Shown here in pieces: positions 41,209-60,172 of a DNA stretch of 64,000 bases. The notes under the pieces were generated by a model. The model made no database searches. It had not been told where the DNA came from and was given only the letters and a program-made list of their open reading frames with translations. The DNA comes from the human T2T-CHM13v2.0 reference genome, Homo sapiens: the NCBI RefSeq assembly GCF_009914755.1, contig NC_060925.1. The stretch is one strand, 5' to 3'. Every line of letters begins with the position of its first letter. Within the stretch, counting starts at the first letter, position 1. A program made the translations under genes and the position numbers.

Positions 41209-43231
41209 AATTCTTTTCTTTTTAGAAAAATCCTTTATTAAAACATGAAAATAATCTGAATAAATTCAAGCTATTGGTTTTAGTCTCTATTGCTTCATTA
41301 TTAACAAATGCATATATAAAATACCTAGTAACCACAACACTGGACATTTTGAATCATGCATTAGAATGTTTGTACTCTAAAATCAGAGTTAAGGGCCTGC
41401 CACTATTGCTTGCACTTTCAATCAGACCCAGTTTGAATTTAATAAGCATGTAAAATAAACTCCTTGATTCAGAGGAATTCTGGGAAATAACAAGGATCCA
41501 TGCAAGTTTCAACTCAAAAGTTGGGTTAATAATTGCTTAGAAATGCAGGCAGAAACTCCACATCTATCACAATGCTGCTTCAGAACAGGGATAAGAGTCA
41601 TACACAAAAATGTTAAAATTAGGACCATTAATCAGTTTTAAAAGGCTTATATGCAAATCCTGGTCCATCTGATTAGAGAATGATGTACAAACTCTGGGAA
41701 AAGAAAGAGAATTGAGGGATGTACAGTCTTAAGGAGCTGTTAATTTTCTTGGTGATTTACTGACAACTATAACAGGAGAGCATAGGTGGTTTAGGGGGAT
41801 GGTTAAGATGCTCTTAGGCAGAATGGTTTCTTTTCTGATTCATGCTAATAAGCATTACCTGCATAGCTCCCTAGGGAAAAAATGATAAAGAGCAGGGCTA
41901 ATACAATGTAAACTCAAGCTATCAATAACCTCAAATTTAGCACAGCCCTCTGCTTTTTAAAACTGTTCACCAAGGGATCCTTCCAAATAGGATATAATTA
42001 ATAGCCAACAATGTTCATTAATAAACTAGAAGAAATCTGCTTGAACCAACAGCACCGTGAGAATGTAAGCTCCTGGAGGCCAAGAATCTCTTCATATTTT
42101 TGCATATCACAGACACATGAAGAGTCAACATGAGACCACAGTAACTTTGAAAAGTAATTAACTGTATACTTTCAAGACTATGAAAAACTCATAGTATATT
42201 TTAGCATTTAGACGTATTAACATGGCTGTTAAGGGTAATCTTTAATTGTTCCAAGTAACTGAACTGCTGACATCATTGTAATATGTAGTGCTGTCCCCAG
42301 ATAGCGCAGATGTCTGAATATTGCTTGGTTATTCCAATGTCTCTAAGACCAACTGACAGCATAGGACATTTCGAGAGGAGCTATAATCAACTTAACACAG
42401 CCTTTTCCCTGTGTGTCAGTTGTCATGTAAGAATTAAATATTCAAGAGGCACTATTTCTTAGATCTACATCACTTATCTTTTTGTTTTTTCCCTGGGAAA
42501 ACAAGGAAATGTAGATCCAGTCTTTTCAGGGATAGTCAAGGTGCTAACAGGCCAAGATAGACATCAGGTGAAAGGGAGTGAAGTCACCCTAGTTCCACTA
42601 TTATATTCTGATGTGAGCTGTGTGATTCCTCAGATCAAGAAAGAAACTAGTTTGCTGGGTTCTCCTTGATAAAGAATAAGCGGTCACAGGGCATAGACAC
42701 GTCTATGTTAAACAAGGTTTCACACCCCGCCCACCCAAACATATTCACTGGCTATTCCTTTCAATCCTTCTGCTTTGCATCTTTAAATCTTAACTCCCTA
42801 ATCATAAGCATGAGAGAAATCCGGCTTATCCATGTTCTTGGGAGTTTTTTTAAAACATTAAACTCACAAACTTCTCTCCCTTTAAAAAAAAAATGTACCC
42901 AGGAAACCAATGGAGAAAGATGAGGAGACAAAGCAGAAAGTACAGCGTTCTACAAAATAAATGCCTGTTGCTGAAACATTGTAAGCAAAAAACCCACAGA
43001 GCAGCTTCAGTGGGGCCTTGGTACATTTGTTCCCAGGTTAAGCACTATAAAGGTTTAATTTCAACAGCTCTAACCCTCTGATTTAGGAAACAAACAGGAC
43101 CTTTAACCTTTAACTTACATAAAAGTTGATTATTTCTCACACAAAGATAAATTCATATACATTCATACTGTTCTAAAAGAAAGTACCTTTCATACGCTCT
43201 TTAACCAGAACATTTTTTCCTTTTGTGCAGC

Positions 43232-43494
43232 TTTTTTTTTGAGGCTGGAGTACAGTGGTGTGATCCGGATCACTGCAACTCCGCCTCCCAGGTCCAAGCG
43301 ATTCTCCTGCCTCAGCCTCCCGAGTAGCTGGGACTACAGGCATGTGCCATCACACCCAGCCAACCCTTGTACCTTTAGTAGAGACGGCGCTTCACCATGC
43401 CGGCCAGGATGGTCTTGATCTCTTGACCTTGTGATCTGCCCACCTCGGCCTCCCAAAGTGCTGGGATTACAGGCATGAGCCATCACACCTGGCC
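43232..43494 (-). mobile_element. AluSc-like inside the Cyrano retrocopy, with clustered T>C changes
   Basis: ggatggtcttgatctcttgacc Sc diagnostics; the linker reads ccaacccttgtaccttt instead of ctaatttttgtattttt. Confidence 0.92.
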
Positions 43495-44487
43495 TTTGTG
43501 CAAGTCTTGATTGCAGAGCCCTACAAACTCAAGTAGTATCACTTATTCTATTGTACAACCTTGCTAATGCAGATTACTATACATGCACAAACTTATTGCT
43601 ACTAAAATTCTACCTCTTGAAAATTACTATTCATTTTATGGCTTTTTTTTTTTTTTTGCAACAGGAAATATCCTTTCCTATATACTGTGCTATTCTGTAT
43701 TCATTAGCTTTTCAGTTTTTTTTTTTTAATTTTTTTAATTTAAATGCTTTTCAGTAATGGATTCTCCCAGGAACTAAACTACATAAGCCAAGAGTATAAC
43801 TACACCAAATACACTACGAGAATCTAAACTTGAGTCTCTGGAGACCTGCTGCCAGAGTCTACTTGTTCTAACCTGTGTATGCACAAGATACATCACATTA
43901 TAATAGTTTTGCATGTGCTATCATGCATCAGTTATGTAGAATCTGTGTCAGCAAATGCTGGACTCTATCTAATACTGAAATTTAAAAATCACCTCAGAAA
44001 ACTGCCACTTCTGAGTTCTCAAGGCAGCTTTTAGAGGTAGGAATTCCTTCTCTACAGAAAGCTATCTTATTCTTTCAGAGCAAAACAACTGTTTCATTTC
44101 CACAAGTAAAGTAGATAAAAGTGAAAGCTGTCCGAGGCTTACTATACCCAAGAGAAAGAGTCTACTTATTATGTAGCAACCTAGGTAGGTGCCACCCAGC
44201 TACATTTCCAGTTCTCATGAAAAGGTCTGAAAATCCCATCAATAGACAATTCGGCGCATTTGGAAACAGGAAGAGCCCTAACAAATAATCGAATACTCCA
44301 AATTACTGAGTGTTTGCACACAGCATGCTGCAAACAGGAAATGTAAATGGTTTGCAGATTAGAAAAGCACTCACTGAAGCAATTAACAGCATCTCCATAA
44401 GACATGCAAAATGTAATTTCTTGACATACAAGGAGTAGGAAAAGAATGAACCTAGAAGACGTGTCATGTTAAGACATGAAAAGAGCA

Positions 44488-44736
44488 GGCCGGGTGGATT
44501 ACTTGAGGTCAGGAGTTTGAGACCAGCCTGACCAACACGGTGAAACCCCATCTCCAATAAAAATACAAAAATTAGCTGGGCATGGTGGCGCATGCCTGCA
44601 GTCCCACCTACTCGGGAGGCCGAGGGACGAGAATCACCTGAACCCAAGAGGCAGAGGTTGCAGTAAGCCGAGACTGTGCCACTGCACTCCAGCCTGGGTG
44701 AGAGAGTGAGACTCCATCTCCCCACCCCCGAAAAAA
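44488..44736 (+). mobile_element. AluS inside the Cyrano retrocopy (about 50-bp left-arm deletion), inverted relative to 43232-43494
   Basis: TSD aaaagagca. Confidence 0.92.
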
Positions 44737-45103
44737 GAGCAAAGCAGAATAATTAAATGGGGTCTCATTTTGACTTGAGGTTTCATAAGACACAAAGACA
44801 GCTGGTTTCCAGACACCTTATGGAAAGCTGAAATGTCCTCAAACATAGTATCTCAGATTTTGACCCCATATTTCTATTCATAAATGAGTCTTTTGGGCCT
44901 TAACCTCTTTTCCCCAGGGAGAATATAACATATTTAGACATTATGGAAAAAGAAAAGTTTTAGATTTTCCACTCTTTTTACACTGTTATTATCAATAATT
45001 CATCCTGAAGTTTAAAATCACTAGGCTCATGCACTAACCCCTAACATGGCACTACAATATGCTACCAAGCACTAATGCTTACAAAACTATACATATCTTA
45101 AAG

Positions 45104-45129
45104 TGGAAGACATTGGTGATTTTGTTGTT
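45104..45129 (-). promoter_or_regulatory. Extended miR-7 complementary site (Cyrano TDMD trigger sequence)
   Basis: Minus strand AACAACAAAATCACCAATGTCTTCCA: 8mer seed match to miR-7 (UGGAAGACUAGUGAUUUUGUUGUU), central internal loop, then extensive 3' pairing. Confidence 0.93.
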
Positions 45130-46426
45130 CTTAAACAACTTTTAACATTTGTCCACAAGTATTAAAATACACATATATATATACATTTCTATTGCACATA
45201 TCCTGTTTTTGTTTAACTTTTCAAAAGAAAAACTGCCAGCTAACATGGATGAGCAAGGGAAGGGAAGGAAGCATGGCTACAAATCGACGTACAGTCCTGC
45301 CTAAAATTATAGCTTTTCCTATCAAAGGGACCAAAATAGACAAGAAAAAAATGTAGATGTATTAAGTAAACACTGGGCAACTACAGCTGCAATATATCCA
45401 TTTTGTTAAAGGCATCTGATCTGAACCATGGAAGATACAGAAACAATTTCAAGAGCATTAAACACTGGTTCTCTCAACTGTGGAATGAAAAAAATATAAA
45501 GTATATACACTGAGTCTGATAGCTATTTAAACAAGTGGGCCAGAGCCGGTTTCAATGGTGCCAAAAGTACAGGTACTCTACCACCCGTCAAATGATCCTA
45601 CCAAAAAAGATGCCAGAAGTACACACAGAAGATGGGTTAACAGACACCTGGAAGGTACAAATTCTCCATGATATGACATTTTCAACATACTAGTGGAACC
45701 CATATATGTAGGCTCCATTCTGTCTTGAACAATTCCAAAATATTAAAGAAAAACATCAGGAAGTAGGTAGATTACTTAGAGAAAAATTTGAGTTACTTTT
45801 AAGCAAAGATTTTTACTGTGCTTTTATCACTCACTCAGTAGTTGCCCTCAAAAAAAGAAATATTTTATATATAATATGTAATTATTTTACTAAAAGTATT
45901 TTTTACCCATTTCAAATGGGTTGATTGACCAATCTCACTAATAGTAAGAGTGCTCAACATTTCCAATTTTGGGCCATTTTTATCACTCTCAAATTTTGGT
46001 GAATCTTCGCTATTCCTAGCATCATAGCATTGATGGACCTGAGTAAACATTCCGGAAAACACAGAGATGTTCCAAAACTCTCTGTTCTTAATTTCATCTA
46101 GTTTCAAAATTTATTCTCTACTCACAAAGAAGCATAAAGGTTTCACTCTTACATAAAGACCTGACAGTACACACAATGGTCCTCTGCTGATTTGGAAGCA
46201 AGGACAGTTTTCTACGACAGTCTGTTCTTTATAACTGTTGTGGGAAAAAAAATCAATTTCTTATTGTAATTATTTTTCTTGTTTGAAGTTTCTTTTCCAC
46301 GATGACCCAACCGCAAGTTTGGGAACATTGCTTCTGAGGCCCATGCTCTGATGAGAAAGTCCAGTCCCAACTGGGGACAGTACCTGAGTCCCAGCCTTTT
46401 CAGCCTAACATTATACCTAATATCTA

Positions 46427-47212
<786 letters not shown>

Positions 47213-47701
47213 TAGTATCTTTCACGTTAAATTAGAAACACATATTTGGAATTTACTGCTGCAGCCTCAGCTGTGCTTATCATGGTAGTGGCTGAAAGTG
47301 GAAGACTTTTTTTTAAACCCTGAAGTCATCCATACTTGCTACTTCTTTAGTCTTCTTGCTTGGAATGAAAAGTATTCACAAATACCACCACCTAAGCACC
47401 TGTTTCAAATGAAACTCAGCCCTCAGCTTGAAAAATGATGTCTTTATAATTAAGCAAACAGCAGAAGACCCATGCGAGTTGCTTCTTTCTCCCTGGAGAT
47501 GTTGGCAGGATAACTGGAATCCTAGGAGCTCCTCTGTGTTCAACTTCAGAGGCAGAACAAAAAGGAAAGTGGCCTTTTCCATTCCAAATCACGGAGGTAA
47601 TGTGTAGAGAAGTGATAGCCACATTTCAAGCATAGGGAAAGTAACTTGGTAAAAGAAGCAGGACTACCCACTCTAGGAGACAACATAGAGACACTTGCCA
47701 A

Positions 47702-49089
47702 TGAGAGGTGACAGCGTGCTGGCAGTCCGCACAGCCCTCGCTCGCTCTCGGCGCCTCCTCTGCCTGGGCTCCCACTTTGGCGGCACTTGAGGGGCCCTTC
47801 AGCCCACCGCTGCTCTGTGGGAGCCCCTTTCTGGGCTGGCCAAGGCCGGAGCCGGCTCCCTCAGCTTACAGGGAGGTGTGGAGGGAGAGGCGCGAGCGGG
47901 AACCGGGGCTGCGCGCGGCGCTTGCGGGCCAGCTGGAGTTCCGGGTGGGCGTGGGCTTGGCGGCCCCGCACTCAGAGCAGCTGGCCGGCCCTGTCGGCCC
48001 CAGGCAATGAGGGCTTAGCACCCGGGCCGGCGGCTGCGGAGGATGTACTGGGTCCCCCAGCAGTGCCGGCCCACCGGCGCTGTGCTCTATTTCTCGCCGG
48101 GCCTTAGCTGCCTTCCCGCGGGGCAGGGCTCGGGACCTGCAGCCCGCCATGCCTCAGCCTTCCCCGACCTCCGTGGGCTCCTGTGCAGCCCAAGCCTCCC
48201 CGAGGAGCGCCGCCCCCTGCTCCACGGCGCCCAGTCCCATCACCACCCAAGGGCTGAGGAGTGCGGACGCACGCCGCGGGACTGGCAGGCAGCTCCACCT
48301 GCAGCCCCGGTGCGGGATCCACTGGGTGAAGCCAGCTGGGCTCCTGAGTCTGGTGAGGATGTGGGGAACCTTTGTGTCTAGCTCAAGGTTTGTAAATACA
48401 CCAGTCAGCACCCTGTGGCTAGCTCAGTGTGAATGCACCAATGGACGCTCTGTATCTAGCTACTCCGGTGGGGCCTTGGAGAACCTTTACGTCTAGCTCA
48501 GGGATTGTAAATACACCAATGGGCACTCCGTATCTAGCTCAAGGTTTGTAAACACACCAATCAGCACCCTGTGTTTAGCTCAGGGTTTGTGAGTGCACCA
48601 ATCGACACTGTATCTAGCTACTCTGGTGGGGCCTTGGAGAACCTTTGTGTCTAGCTCAGGGGTTGTAAACGCACCAATCAGTGCCCTGTCAAAACAGTCC
48701 ACTGGGCTCTACCAATCAGCAGGATGTGGGTGGGGCCAGATAGGAGAACAAAAGCAGGCTGCCCGAGCTAGCAGTGGCAACATGCTCAGGTCTCTTACCA
48801 CGCTGTGGAAGCTTTGTTCTTTCGCTCTTTGCAATGAATCCTGCTGCTGCTCACTCTTTGGGTCCACACTGCCTTTATGAGCTGTAACACTCACTGTGAA
48901 GGTCCGCAGCTTCCCTCCTGAGCCAGCGAGACCAGGAACCCACCAGAAGGAAGAAACTCAGAACACATCCCAACATCAGAAGGAACAAACTCCAGACGCG
49001 CCACCTTAAGAGCTGTAACACTCACCGCGAGGGTCTGCGGCTTCATTCTTCAAGTCAGTGAGACCAAGAACCCACCAATTCCGGACACA
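47702..49089 (+). mobile_element. LTR12C (ERV9/HERV9) solo LTR
   Basis: Starts TGAGAGGTGACAGCGTGCTGGCAG and ends CCAATTCCGGACACA. CpG-rich 5' U3 and tandem CCAAT/TATCTAGCT enhancer repeats. 4-bp TSD ccaa at 47698-47701 and 49090-49093. Confidence 0.95.
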
Positions 49090-49176
49090 CCAAGTCCTGA
49101 GTTCAGAATTTTGTTTTTGAGATGAACATAAAAGCACCTAAAGGTCAAGGAAGATGTTCTTCCTGTGATAAGGAAC

Positions 49177-49219
49177 ACAAAGCCTGTTTGGTGGTCTCTT
49201 CACACGGAAGCGCATGACA
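49177..49219 (+). mobile_element. 3'-terminal fragment of a HERV-H LTR7-family LTR carried inside the retrocopy
   Basis: acaaagcctgtttggtggtctcttcacacggaagcgcatgaca matches the recalled LTR7 U5 end and stops abruptly at the antisense splice-donor position. Confidence 0.8.
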
Positions 49220-49777
49220 GTTCGCTTTAGTGTAGATGACCACTCCCCTCTGTAAGGTAGGGAGGAAGAATGTTCGGTTAGTTCCTTTCCTCCGGCCGAT
49301 CTCTTTTTTTTCTTCTGGCACGGTCCAACAGACACTCCTGGCACTTGGCTTCCCGGGGGCTGCTCGCCCCCGGCCCAGAGGCCGGTTTCCAGCGGCAGGC
49401 CTTATTCCACCATCTTTGCAGCTTCCAATTCTTTTCATGTTAAGTTGTTTTTTGGAGAGATATATAAATTTATTTTGGTCAGTATTTGTCTTATATCTCT
49501 TTTTCCAAATTCTTTATGTTCCAATTTTTGGGGTAGTATTGTTTTAAGTGTCTCTTACATACTATATCTAGATATATCTTTACTCTGAGAATTTTTTAAG
49601 AGGCAGTTTAAAACCGTTACCTGTACTACAACTGCAAATATACTTGAATTTATTTCTTTTATATTATTTTGTGTTTGCAATTTAATATTATCTTTGTTTC
49701 TCTTCTTATATCCAATTGTGTAGGTGAAGTTTTCTTTGTTTCATTTCCCTCTGTTTGTTTAAAAAGTTGTATTTTCT

Positions 49778-53895: not shown

Positions 53896-56800
53896 TTTTT
53901 TAAACAAAATTCGCATTTTATTTAGATTGATATAAATTATAGTTTATTTTCTTCACCAAAAAATAACTGCAATATTTTCCGTATTTTTCTAGATAAGCCA
54001 ATACACTTATATTTGTAGGTTTTCCGGGTTTTTCTTATAAATCAAGATGAGGCAATAGGTAAGAGTCATGAAAAAAGACAGAAAAAAAAGATAAATCAGT
54101 TGTCAGTATCCATAGCCTCTGATTCTGTCTTAACCGTGAAACAGAAGTGGTCAACATATACTTACTAAAAAAGCTTAGGAAAATGTAGGCTCCACAAAGG
54201 AATATAAACAGCAACAACTAGATGTGGAACGACAGCAGGCTCTTCCATTCAAACTTTAACTGTCATTTGTTCCTTTAAGTTCATTTGTGAAAGATAAAAA
54301 TCTACCCTGAAATCCTTGTTTGGCAAGCTCACAAGCGTCTCTTTCTCTGGTAATTTCTTGTAACTGTCCAATATAGATTTTTAACATACTTAAAACTCCT
54401 ATTAGTGAAAGGTCAATTGTGGGCTTCACTGTAACATTTTATAAAATGTATTCCTTCCTCTCATACCTCTTCAAAATATGTTTCTTCAAAGAATTGGTAA
54501 CTCAACACCCAAGGAGCAGAGATCCACAGTGATAATAAATGCGGTGTCTCAAATGACTTAAACAATTGCAGAGTGCCACCCACAGAGATCATGCGGAAGT
54601 GAAAGATGACACTTTCAATGTTCTGTTCTGGAAGAACAGACAGGTCTTCAAAGCATGCGGGTTCAAACGGGCCATTTAAACAGGTAGATTATCAATGGCT
54701 AATGTATTCAATGGAGGCCTACAGGCAAAGATATTAAGTGATTAAGGCCTACATACACCTTATGGCTTTCCTTCCAAATATCGAATATAAGAAAGACTAT
54801 TTTTAAAAGTCTCAGGTATTTTCCATGGTTTCTGAATTATCTGTGGGAAGCTCTGACTTACTGTTACAGAGTTTAATATATGTGTCCACCAATAAATCCA
54901 GGTCATGTTTTATATCAAAATTTATGTTAATCTAAGCCAAGTTACTTGACCTTTGGTCTGTCAAAGTGTTCCTCAAGTATGCTTTAAGATGCTTTCGTCC
55001 ATTTTCATACTGCTCATTCTCAACCTTCATCACAGGAGAAATACACAGGACCTTTGGCAATAGGTCATTTAGCATACACATTAGGAAAAAACTTGATGTC
55101 AGGCAGATGGAGGGCTTCATAAATGGTGGACAGAAGCTCTGTGTCTTTCCCCATTTCCATTTGATTCTCCAACAATGAAGCTCGGCTGAGAGCATGTCGG
55201 GATTGGGTAAGTCATTTCTATACATGTCAGCATGGTGTTCCTCCGATGTATTGAATTTGAGTTGTCCCATGACTGAGGGTACCAGAGATAAGCATTTACG
55301 AGCTTGGAGGTGCTGTTCTGCGATTATATCTTTAAGTTCCTGAATAATGTGCTCCACTGTTGGGACACTTAGGATTTCTTTATAGTAACTCTCAGAGGTT
55401 AGCTGAGATTCCAAGTTACGCTGGTAAGCTCTGCAATATTTCCCAGGGAGTTTCATTTGAATATCAAGTTTGGTTGCCAAATTTGTGGCTTCCTCAAATC
55501 AAAATTCCTGATAAACTTCAATATTCTCCGTCACTTCACTGAGTGAACGCAGTGCTGCAGTCAAGCTACTGGCTGCAAAGAAGACATCAAAGGTTTGCCC
55601 CTGGAGATTTTTCCCAAAGGCTCTGGTAAAAGATAGGACATTTTTAAGAACAACAATAGTAACAATGAAGTCAAAATCTGTTACTGCACTGCAGAGTACA
55701 AATGCTCAGCCAGCTACAGTTATTCCATCTAATATTTGTGTCACTATTTATATCATCTAAACATAAAACAAATGCTTGCAGAAGTTCCACTACAATTTCA
55801 AAAACATCATGCCTGCCTGTCCACTGAGAATGGCAGAGTTCCTTCAGTTCTTTGTCCCTTTCTTTACTGTTCTGAAAAAGAACAGAAATTACATTGTCAA
55901 ATTCTAAAAGCAGTTGTGGTGATTGATGGAAAAAAAGAACAAACTCCGTCAATTGTTCCTGATGCAACAGATACTCCCATAACAGGTACTGATTTTACCA
56001 ACCACATATTTAAGACGCAGGAAGAGCAGAGTGGGTAGATAGCTTGGGGATATTTCTCTAAAAGTCTAGAAGCAACAACTTTCATTTTGGAAGAAAATCC
56101 AGTAGACAAAATGTAAGCTTGGTCATGACAGTACTCCATATTTAATCCCCATTTCTCAGCTATCATAGTGTGAAATTTCACAGCCAAAACTTCTGCATCA
56201 GCTTCATAAGGCAGGAAGCCTACAAATTCCCCTCTTATGTTTTGAGACTCATCAACAAACCTCACCGAGACTCATCAACAAATCTCACCAACATAGGTAG
56301 GTGCCCTTCCCCTGCCATGTCCGCTACATCGTCAGTTATAATGGAAAAGAAGTGTGAGTCTCTCACTTCCCTGCATTCTTCCCGAATGCAGCTCTCACAG
56401 ATCTCTAGCATCTGCCTCTGCTGTGTTTTTAATAAAACAACATGTTAACTGCTGTTGTCTCAAACTGCTTTCTCAGGACCTCTTGACCAGAATTTATCCA
56501 GCACTCCAGCACGGCTTGCACGTTATCTGGAGTAAAGAGACCTTCTGGGATTTCATCAGCCTCCTGTCCATCCAGAGGTATGTTTTGCTTTCCCATCAGA
56601 ATCAAGATTTCAAACAGAGATTTTAGGTATCCTTTGTTTTCCTTCTTTTCAAGGGTTAGAGGTAAAATGTCCTCATCTGGCCCTTCACTCCCTTCTTTAC
56701 TGGGGTTCGGAGCATTGCTGTTGTTGGTTTCTTTATGTTTTTGTTCCTGTTCAGAAGTTTCATCAACAATTCTTTTATTCGTTTTCTGGGTCTACTAGGT

Positions 56801-57174
56801 GGGTTGTTCAAATGACCAGTAAGAGCAAATATTGTTGGTATTGCATTATCTCATAGAACTGTCCTATAAGGACTAGTTCTACAGACCCCAGATGTCTCAA
56901 AATGTTTGGCACCTCATTGATCATGTTTAGTTGATCATCCCTGGGGCTGGGGAGGGCAGCCAGGCCAGCCAGCGCGCAGGGCAGGGGCGGGCGGAGGAGA
57001 AGCCTGGAGGAGGCTGACGGGAAGCCTCGAGGAGGGGCACCCCGGTCCGAGGCTGGGCTGGGAACGCTGCTCCACAGCGCTGTGAGTGGCCGGGAGGACT
57101 TACCGCCACCACCGCTGCCTCTGGGGCATCTCCCACCCGCCCGGGATGCTGCCGCCTCCTTTCCACAATGCCTG
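53896..57174 (-). pseudogene. Processed pseudogene of THAP12 (PRKRIR/P52rIPK)
   Basis: Minus-strand ORF fragments (RFVDESQNIRGEFVGFLPYEADAEVLAVKFHT; FFHQSPQLLLEFDNVISVLFQNSKER; ATKLDIQMKLPGK...LKAYLRNTLTDQRSSNLA) match THAP12 with many frameshifts. It is intronless, with a GC-rich 5'UTR remnant at 56940-57174, the stop remnant at 54812-54814, and a 3'UTR with AATAAA at 53917-53922. Degenerate TSD ttaatcaaattttttaa (about 53887-53903) / ttgatcaattttttaa (57175-57190). Confidence 0.93.
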
Positions 57175-59203: not shown

Positions 59204-59973
<770 letters not shown>

Positions 59974-60172
59974 TAATCCCAATCCACTACTTAGGTAGGT
60001 GACTTCAAACAAGTTACTTAACCTCTCTCTGCTTCAGTGTTCTCAAAATTGCAGAAACGATCTTATAGGACTGCTGTGATGGTTAAATGTGAGAATTTTG
60101 AGGGCACAGAAAACTCTTAATGAAGTGGCAGGTACTTAGTAAGCGTCACTAAATTTTACTAATTACATCACA

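What the first reader, a model, noticed from the sequence alone, without database searches (positions are those of the whole stretch)
45087..45197. Intact miR-7 TDMD trigger module with miR-25/92 and Pumilio motifs preserved in the retrocopy
Seen on the minus strand: AACAACAAAATCACCAATGTCTTCCA (45129-45104), with seed 8mer, central loop and extensive 3' pairing to miR-7. Also a miR-25/32/92/363/367 8mer GTGCAATA (45197-45190), a canonical Pumilio element TGTATATA (45185-45178; another at 45509-45502) and TGTATAG (45093-45087). Established: this site in Cyrano triggers ZSWIM8-dependent miR-7 degradation, which in turn affects the circRNA Cdr1as in neurons. Inference: any minus-strand transcript through here could be a primate-specific TDMD trigger or partial back-up for OIP5-AS1. 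A 26-nt stretch can stay unmutated by chance at this age, so intactness alone does not show selection.
Basis: partly seen in the sequence, partly recalled or inferred. Interest (0 to 1): 0.85.

Follow-up and report, generated by a model that had tools for sequence, protein, structure and literature searches.

The report
Cyrano retrocopy with RNA-editing fossil
This is an unannotated, intron-less genomic copy of the lncRNA Cyrano whose miR-7-destroying site is identical to the parent's, likely by neutral inheritance in a likely silent locus, and its Alu repeats carry A-to-G changes that likely record ADAR editing of the RNA molecule it was copied from.

Summary
The site lies in a full-length processed retrocopy of OIP5-AS1/Cyrano (49425-41224, minus strand; four exons spliced, target-site duplication, no parent promoter) split by a solo LTR12-type element pointing away from the site. 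The 26-nt miR-7 site is identical to the chr15 parent and occurs only at these two places in the genome. However, 23% of 26-column windows are identical anyway, and the block around the site is no better conserved than the rest (6/112 vs 4.6%, p=0.65). Both canonical Pumilio elements are absent from the parent, so they are not 'preserved'. No transcript is annotated, and transcription could not be tested; RGS7 read-through (11 kb upstream, same strand) or antisense LTR activity are weak routes. Unexpected: in four shared Alus the copy has 16/174 derived A>G versus 2/163 T>C (p=0.001) and 1/159 A>G in the parent, concentrated in an inverted Alu pair. This is a likely fossil of ADAR editing. My searches found no paper on the copy. 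Verdict: ordinary as a trigger, moderately interesting as an edited lncRNA retrocopy and a read-mapping confounder.

The parts
41224..49425 (-). Full-length processed retrocopy of OIP5-AS1 (Cyrano), about 6.8 kb of spliced RNA plus an inserted LTR; no row in the supplied annotation
49427..49436 (-). 5' copy of a 10-nt target-site duplication
41209..41218 (-). 3' copy of the target-site duplication, after a short A tract
49315..49425 (-). Exon 1 copy (parent 39090186-39090289); conserved AUGGCG element mutated
   Evidence: element from Ross 2021
49175..49316 (-). Exon 2 copy, ending in the exonised LTR7 fragment
   Evidence: LTR7 label from Kapusta 2013 supplement
49090..49176 (-). Exon 3 copy, interrupted 3 nt before its end by the LTR
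47702..49089 (+). Solo LTR12/ERV9-type LTR with a 4-nt target-site duplication, 41-nt repeats with CCAAT and GATA motifs, oriented away from the miR-7 site
   Evidence: motif description from the review; subfamily not determined
41224..47694 (-). Exon 4 copy (parent 39104205-39110654), 341 mismatches in 6379 aligned columns, ending at a proximal poly(A) signal
45104..45129 (-). miR-7 trigger site, identical to the parent, inside a 38-nt identical run (45141-45104)
45190..45198 (-). miR-25/92 family site, shared with the parent
45087..45093 (-). TGTATAG Pumilio-like element, shared with the parent
45178..45185 (-). Canonical Pumilio element present in the copy only
45502..45509 (-). Second canonical Pumilio element present in the copy only
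45027..45033 (-). Rbfox element, shared with the parent
44488..44735 (-). Antisense Alu, 5' arm of the inverted pair; 4 copy-derived A>G at stable sites
43232..43495 (-). Sense Alu, 3' arm of the inverted pair; 9 copy-derived A>G, 8 of them within 43401-43361
46437..47120 (-). Two further shared Alus (sense 47120-46825, antisense 46600-46437); 3 copy-derived A>G
41234..41239 (-). AATAAA poly(A) signal of the copied short isoform; the parent's distal conserved signal is not included

Best explanation
The miR-7 site is a base-for-base inherited part of an intron-less retrocopy of OIP5-AS1/Cyrano that is likely silent and likely decaying neutrally, and that was likely reverse-transcribed from an ADAR-edited RNA. 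Shown: spliced junctions, target-site duplication, no parent promoter, about 5% divergence, no extra conservation at the site, and a strand-specific A>G excess in the inverted Alus. Inferred: L1 machinery copied one spliced 6.8-kb Cyrano molecule roughly 20-30 million years ago (recalled substitution rates); inosines in its Alu duplex were fixed as G; an LTR inserted afterwards; the site survives because a 26-mer has about even odds of escaping mutation on one lineage. The site would trigger miR-7 decay if expressed as a stable cytoplasmic RNA, but probably is not expressed at a level that matters beside the parent.
For: Junctions match the parent's GT-AG introns. Target-site duplication; the 5' flank has 34% GC and CpG o/e 0.36 versus 52% and 0.86 upstream of the parent. 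1500 of 6517 26-column windows are identical. Alu-polarised changes other than A>G are balanced, 24 in the copy and 25 in the parent, and P(26-mer intact)=0.49-0.55 at 2.3-2.7% per lineage. No deficit of changes round the site. Of 8 named Ross 2021 elements, 5 are intact, 1 is mutated and 2 lie beyond the copy's end. The LTR's 3' end faces away (7 of 8 pattern matches share the same downstream internal sequence). Editing: 16/174 A>G vs 2/163 T>C (p=0.0011) and vs 1/159 in the parent (p=0.0002); 4.2 expected from unselected Alus; 5' G in 1 of 16 against 49 of 174 sites (p=0.043); all 13 sites in the inverted pair are A-U paired in the predicted duplex. The 36 neighbouring Alu hits show no such bias (45/1841 vs 56/1765), and none of 102 unselected Alus shares more than 1 of the 9 Gs.
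Against: No expression, CLIP, population or orthologue data could be examined, so silence is inferred. The selection test has little power: 42 motif bases expect about one change. Editing: the sense-Alu cluster was noticed first and then included in the test; without it the contrast is 7/116 vs 2/127 (p=0.09), or vs 0/109 in the parent (p=0.014). There is no 3' G preference (4 of 16 vs 57 of 158, p=0.43). Polarity rests on paralogous Alus, not orthologues. Single unselected Alus reach up to 8 A>G on the same stable sites, though over their whole age. Being paired is expected of most sites in that duplex.
Confidence: 0.8

Rival explanations
1. The copy is transcribed in the sense direction by read-through or splicing from RGS7, uses its own poly(A) signal and acts as a minor second miR-7 trigger in neurons.
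For: RGS7 ends on the same strand 10.7-11.5 kb before the copy (annotation). Acceptor-like sites exist at 49250, 47673 and 45478, and the copy keeps AATAAA at 41239. The site pairs like the parent's. ZSWIM8 needs about 25 nt of flank, of any sequence (PMC13083262). Cyrano acts with multiple turnover (bioRxiv 279687).
Against: The annotated RGS7 span (25 transcripts) ends at 60136. 20 AATAAA and 12 ATTAAA hexamers lie between 61000 and the copy's start. The acceptor filter was crude and passed 175 sites. Post-cleavage read-through RNA is normally nuclear and short-lived (recalled), whereas Cyrano is over 90% cytoplasmic at about 100 molecules per mouse neuron. CRISPRi of the parent alone raised miR-7 about 3-fold in K562. 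No sign of constraint.
Confidence: 0.08
2. The inserted LTR, when de-repressed (germ line, HDAC or DNMT inhibitors), fires antisense and transcribes the exon-4 part, making a conditional trigger.
For: The LTR sits directly upstream of exon 4 and keeps 69 CpGs and its CCAAT/GATA repeats. Some LTR12 elements are bidirectional, and many are induced by DNMT/HDAC inhibitors (PMC11853044).
Against: The LTR points away from the site, and induced LTR12C transcription was mainly unidirectional. Its main product would be antisense to exons 1-3.
Confidence: 0.06
3. The A>G excess comes from ordinary DNA mutation, transcription-coupled strand bias or Alu gene conversion, not from RNA editing.
For: The signal is dominated by one Alu; there is no 3' G preference; the non-Alu part has a mild same-direction lean (50/1644 vs 41/1823, p=0.17, unpolarised).
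Against: Eight-fold strand asymmetry, confined to the copy's branch; 8 of 9 sites in 41 nt (post hoc p=7e-5); no regional bias and no candidate donor Alu among 185 hits compared (102+71+12; at most 2 shared Gs).
Confidence: 0.15
4. The module in the copy is under purifying selection as a co-opted regulatory element.
For: miR-7, miR-25/92, TGTATAG and Rbfox motifs are all intact; a 68-nt identical run follows at 45093.
Against: Seven longer identical runs lie elsewhere in the exon. 4 differences in 67 nt round the site, above the 1.5-1.8 expected on one lineage. The parent's own constraint explains low divergence there.
Confidence: 0.04

Closest known systems
OIP5-AS1 / Cyrano, the miR-7 TDMD trigger lncRNA (bioRxiv 10.1101/279687; PMC13083262; PMC7798263)
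   Same: Identical 26-nt site and predicted duplex; miR-25/92, TGTATAG and Rbfox elements shared; same four exons.
   Different: No introns or promoter, short isoform without the distal conserved poly(A) and miR-153 elements, AUGGCG mutated, LTR inserted, two extra canonical Pumilio elements, no known transcript.
L1-mediated processed pseudogenes (for example neighbouring THAP12P8; PTENP1 as a recalled expressed case)
   Same: Spliced, flanked by a target-site duplication, dispersed, decaying.
   Different: The parent is a lncRNA, so there is no reading frame to break; the functional 26-nt unit survives intact; not in the supplied annotation.
ADAR A-to-I editing of inverted Alu repeats (PMC3636048; an OIP5-AS1 site listed in PMC11291244)
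   Same: A>G on the RNA strand, inside an inverted Alu duplex, depleted after G.
   Different: Here the changes are fixed in genomic DNA, a snapshot of one ancient molecule; no 3' G preference seen.
LTR12/ERV9 solo LTRs as cryptic promoters (PMC11853044)
   Same: About 41-nt U3 repeats with CCAAT and GATA motifs.
   Different: Oriented against the retrocopy; activity of this copy unknown.

Membership tests
Processed retrocopy | Introns precisely removed | tested here: met
   Three junctions match GT-AG intron ends in the parent
Processed retrocopy | Target-site duplication, poly(A) signal and A tract | tested here: met
   10-nt duplication at 49436 and 41218; AATAAA at 41239; A tract short
Processed retrocopy | Dispersed location without the parent promoter | tested here: met
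   chr1 vs chr15; similarity starts at the first exon
TDMD trigger RNA | Seed match, central loop, extensive 3' pairing | tested here: met
   Same duplex as the parent
TDMD trigger RNA | Accessible site with at least 25 nt of flank | tested here: inconclusive
   Flanks present; predicted opening cost 0.6-2.6 kcal/mol higher than the parent over 5 window sizes; flank sequence not critical in vitro
TDMD trigger RNA | Expressed as a stable RNA that meets AGO-miR-7 | not testable with these tools
   No annotated transcript; no RNA data available
TDMD trigger RNA | ZSWIM8-dependent loss of miR-7 | not testable with these tools
   Needs experiment
TDMD trigger RNA | Site conserved beyond its flanks in this locus | tested here: not met
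   6/112 and 4/67 differences vs 4.6%; two-sequence test, low power
ADAR A-to-I footprint | A>G excess on the RNA strand over T>C | tested here: met
   16/174 vs 2/163, p=0.0011; p=0.09 without the sense Alu
ADAR A-to-I footprint | Located in long double-stranded RNA | tested here: met
   Inverted arms of 192 nt, 82% complementary, 1074 nt apart; 13 of 13 sites paired
ADAR A-to-I footprint | 5' G depleted | tested here: met
   1 of 16 vs 49 of 174 sites, p=0.043
ADAR A-to-I footprint | 3' G favoured | tested here: not met
   4 of 16 vs 57 of 158, p=0.43; a weaker, recalled preference
ADAR A-to-I footprint | Same adenosines edited in present-day parent RNA | tested here: inconclusive
   One published site maps, with a recalled hg19 offset, to a parent A where the copy has G, but polarity there is ambiguous (43 A, 53 G of 99 Alus)
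LTR12/ERV9 solo LTR | TG...CA ends, short duplication, CCAAT/GATA repeats, no internal part | tested here: met
   family name from the review and recall
LTR12/ERV9 solo LTR | Subfamily assignment and promoter activity | not testable with these tools
   No repeat library or expression data

The most novel reading that the evidence does not exclude
Primates carry a second, latent Cyrano: a retrocopy of an ADAR-edited molecule whose intact miR-7 site is switched on by RGS7 read-through in neurons or by antisense firing of its LTR, giving a conditional back-up trigger for miR-7 destruction.
Probability: 0.08. Interest if true: 0.8.

Novelty: new member of a known kind. Interest (0 to 1): 0.4.

Why it matters
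As a trigger it probably does nothing. Three things remain useful. (1) It is the only other genomic copy of the best-studied miR-7 degradation site, so short CLIP/CLASH reads inside the 38-nt identical run cannot be assigned uniquely, and 179 of 569 SpCas9 protospacers in the shared exon match both loci perfectly, though neither of the 2 cutting near the site does. (2) If the A>G cluster is editing, it is a dated snapshot showing that an Alu-edited lncRNA molecule reached L1 machinery in a primate germ line or early embryo; a genome-wide search of retrocopies for such footprints becomes an obvious test. Edited parent reads may also mis-map to this copy. (3) Activating the locus would be a natural test of whether an intact site in a near-native context is enough for degradation.

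Tried and rejected
Rfam scan of the window: only two SRP/Alu hits, no RNA family at the site. Selection on the module: rejected on four block sizes, p=0.35-0.85. Further copies of the site: none. Outgroup Cyrano sequences to polarise the Pumilio changes: supplement 2 of PMC7798263 gave 0 hits and supplement 7 only reviewer text; no primate genomes are held. Present-day editing tables: one row for exon and repeat content only in PMC3636048, no supplement for PMC11291244. Literature on the copy: 'OIP5-AS1 + retrocopy' 0 papers, 'RGS7 + readthrough + OIP5-AS1' 0, 'OIP5-AS1 + pseudogene + Cyrano' 26 papers, 20 listed, none about it by title or abstract start. Literature on edited retrocopies: 3, 0 and 7 papers, none on this by listing. 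A CpG imbalance (42 CpGs in the copy only, 19 in the parent only, p=0.004) was not explained. A three-way THAP12 control for regional strand bias was not run; neighbouring Alus served instead. Editing did not weaken the predicted Alu duplex (-347.8 copy vs -343.8 parent).

Full report
Observation. The five motifs are at the stated minus-strand coordinates. A 501-nt query round the site has one other match in the genome, chr15:39106470-39106972 at 94%, and the gapped site pattern occurs at exactly two places. The CLASHub paper gives a 26-nt OIP5-AS1 interval for the miR-7 hybrid (passages), and the hg19 transcript end of OIP5-AS1 maps 28 nt past a parent poly(A) signal when a recalled offset is used; this identifies the parent. 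miR-7-5p read from the genome forms the same duplex with copy and parent.

Anatomy. The copy runs from 49425 to 41224 on the minus strand. Parent exons 39090186-289, 39091405-542, 39092190-279 and 39104205-39110654 are joined at their GT-AG intron ends, about 6.8 kb of RNA. It ends after a proximal AATAAA; the distal conserved signal and the miR-153 element near it lie 2 kb beyond in the parent. A 10-nt duplication flanks it, and the 5' flank is AT-rich, unlike the parent's CpG-rich promoter. A 1.39-kb solo LTR with a 4-nt duplication sits 3 nt before the exon 3/4 junction. It has many genomic relatives and 41-nt repeats with the GATA motif described for LTR12. Its + strand end is followed by one shared sequence in 7 of 8 genomic pattern matches, which I read as the start of the internal part, so its sense direction points away from the miR-7 site. 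The supplied annotation has no row for the copy.

Is the site preserved beyond chance? No. Exon 4 differs at 341 of 6379 columns (K2P 0.056), and 1500 of 6517 26-column windows are identical. In the Alus, polarised changes other than A>G split 24 to 25 between the branches; at 2.3-2.7% per lineage an intact 26-mer has probability 0.49-0.55. The 67-nt limits are my approximation of the block described by Ross 2021 (passages). Of that paper's 8 elements named in the text, 5 are intact, AUGGCG is mutated and 2 were never copied; the figure with the ninth was not visible. The two canonical Pumilio elements are in the copy only. The test is weak, since few changes are expected. The age of roughly 20-30 million years rests on recalled rates.

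Would it work, and is it expressed? The pairing is the parent's, and ZSWIM8 binding needed about 25 nt of flank whose sequence did not matter (PMC13083262, passages), although some triggers work better with longer native context (PMC10899785, passages and section 12). So forced expression would probably lower miR-7; that is a prediction. Expression is the missing step. RGS7 ends 10.7-11.5 kb upstream on the same strand, with 32 poly(A) hexamers between 61000 and the copy's start and 175 crude acceptor-like sites between 60136 and the site. Induced LTR12C transcription is mainly unidirectional, though some elements are bidirectional (PMC11853044, passages). Cyrano is over 90% cytoplasmic, about 102 molecules per mouse granule neuron, and silencing the parent locus alone raised miR-7 about 3-fold in K562 (bioRxiv 279687, passages). 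A trace nuclear transcript would add little. CLASHub's target list excludes pseudogenes and uses annotated RNAs, so it cannot speak for or against this locus. PMC13631368 (passages) names Cyrano as the miR-7 trigger in breast cancer cells; the 12 of 15 passages shown mention no second copy.

The unexpected part. The sense Alu at 43495-43232 has 19 copy-G/parent-A differences and 3 copy-C/parent-T. Using 99-105 unselected Alu hits as outgroup, at sites where at least 80% agree, the copy has 16 of 174 A>G and 2 of 163 T>C; the parent has 1 of 159 A>G; 4.2 were expected from the pool. Thirteen lie in an inverted pair 1.07 kb apart and all are paired in the predicted duplex. A 5' G is depleted (p=0.043). 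Neighbouring Alus show no strand bias and no compared Alu shares more than 2 of the 9 Gs. Inosine is read as G in reverse transcription (PMC5224506, passages), and Alus in lncRNAs are common editing substrates (PMC3636048, passages). Against: the cluster was seen before the test; without it p is 0.09 against T>C and 0.014 against the parent; there is no 3' G preference; the outgroup is paralogous; ambiguous CpG-type sites were set aside (11 A/G among 25 ambiguous). A published OIP5-AS1 editing site (PMC11291244, passages) maps to a parent A where the copy has G, but the offset is recalled and that site's polarity is ambiguous, so I do not count it. I put editing at about 0.85.

Novelty. Searches found no paper on this copy, and none, by listing, on it or on an edited lncRNA retrocopy. 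The library lacks most subscription papers, and supplements or other gene catalogues that I could not see may list it. From recall, genomic traces of editing in retroelements have been sought before, so the idea is not new in kind. Verdict: a new member of a known kind. The trigger claim is unsupported; the edited retrocopy is a neat, testable side result.

Noticed in passing
window 47694-41224 vs L011: CpG-type differences are lopsided: 42 CpGs are present only in the copy and 19 only in the parent (p=0.004; 63 vs 43 CpGs in all). Heavier germ-line methylation of the parent gene body is one untested reason.
   Followed up: partly
window 49316-49315: The exon 1/2 junction uses the distal AG of a tandem (NAGNAG) acceptor in the parent, a record of the isoform that was copied.
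   Followed up: partly
window 45478 (-): The indel that gives the copy its second Pumilio element also gives a stronger pyrimidine tract before an AG, 350 nt upstream of the miR-7 site.
   Followed up: no
window 47313-47306 (-): A second plain miR-7 8-mer seed match, shared with the parent.
   Followed up: no
window 54515-56935: THAP12P8, a second processed pseudogene on the same strand 5 kb away; 91% identical to a chr11 match, with many paralogous copies.
   Followed up: partly
L003 (C15:39088856-39088899) and L004 (C15:39091500-39091544): The LTR7-like end exonised in exon 2 has a second match about 1.3 kb upstream of the parent's first exon.
   Followed up: no
window 61000-49500 (-): The stretch between RGS7 and the copy holds many poly(A) hexamers and acceptor-like sites, including a strong one at 59936.
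   Followed up: partly
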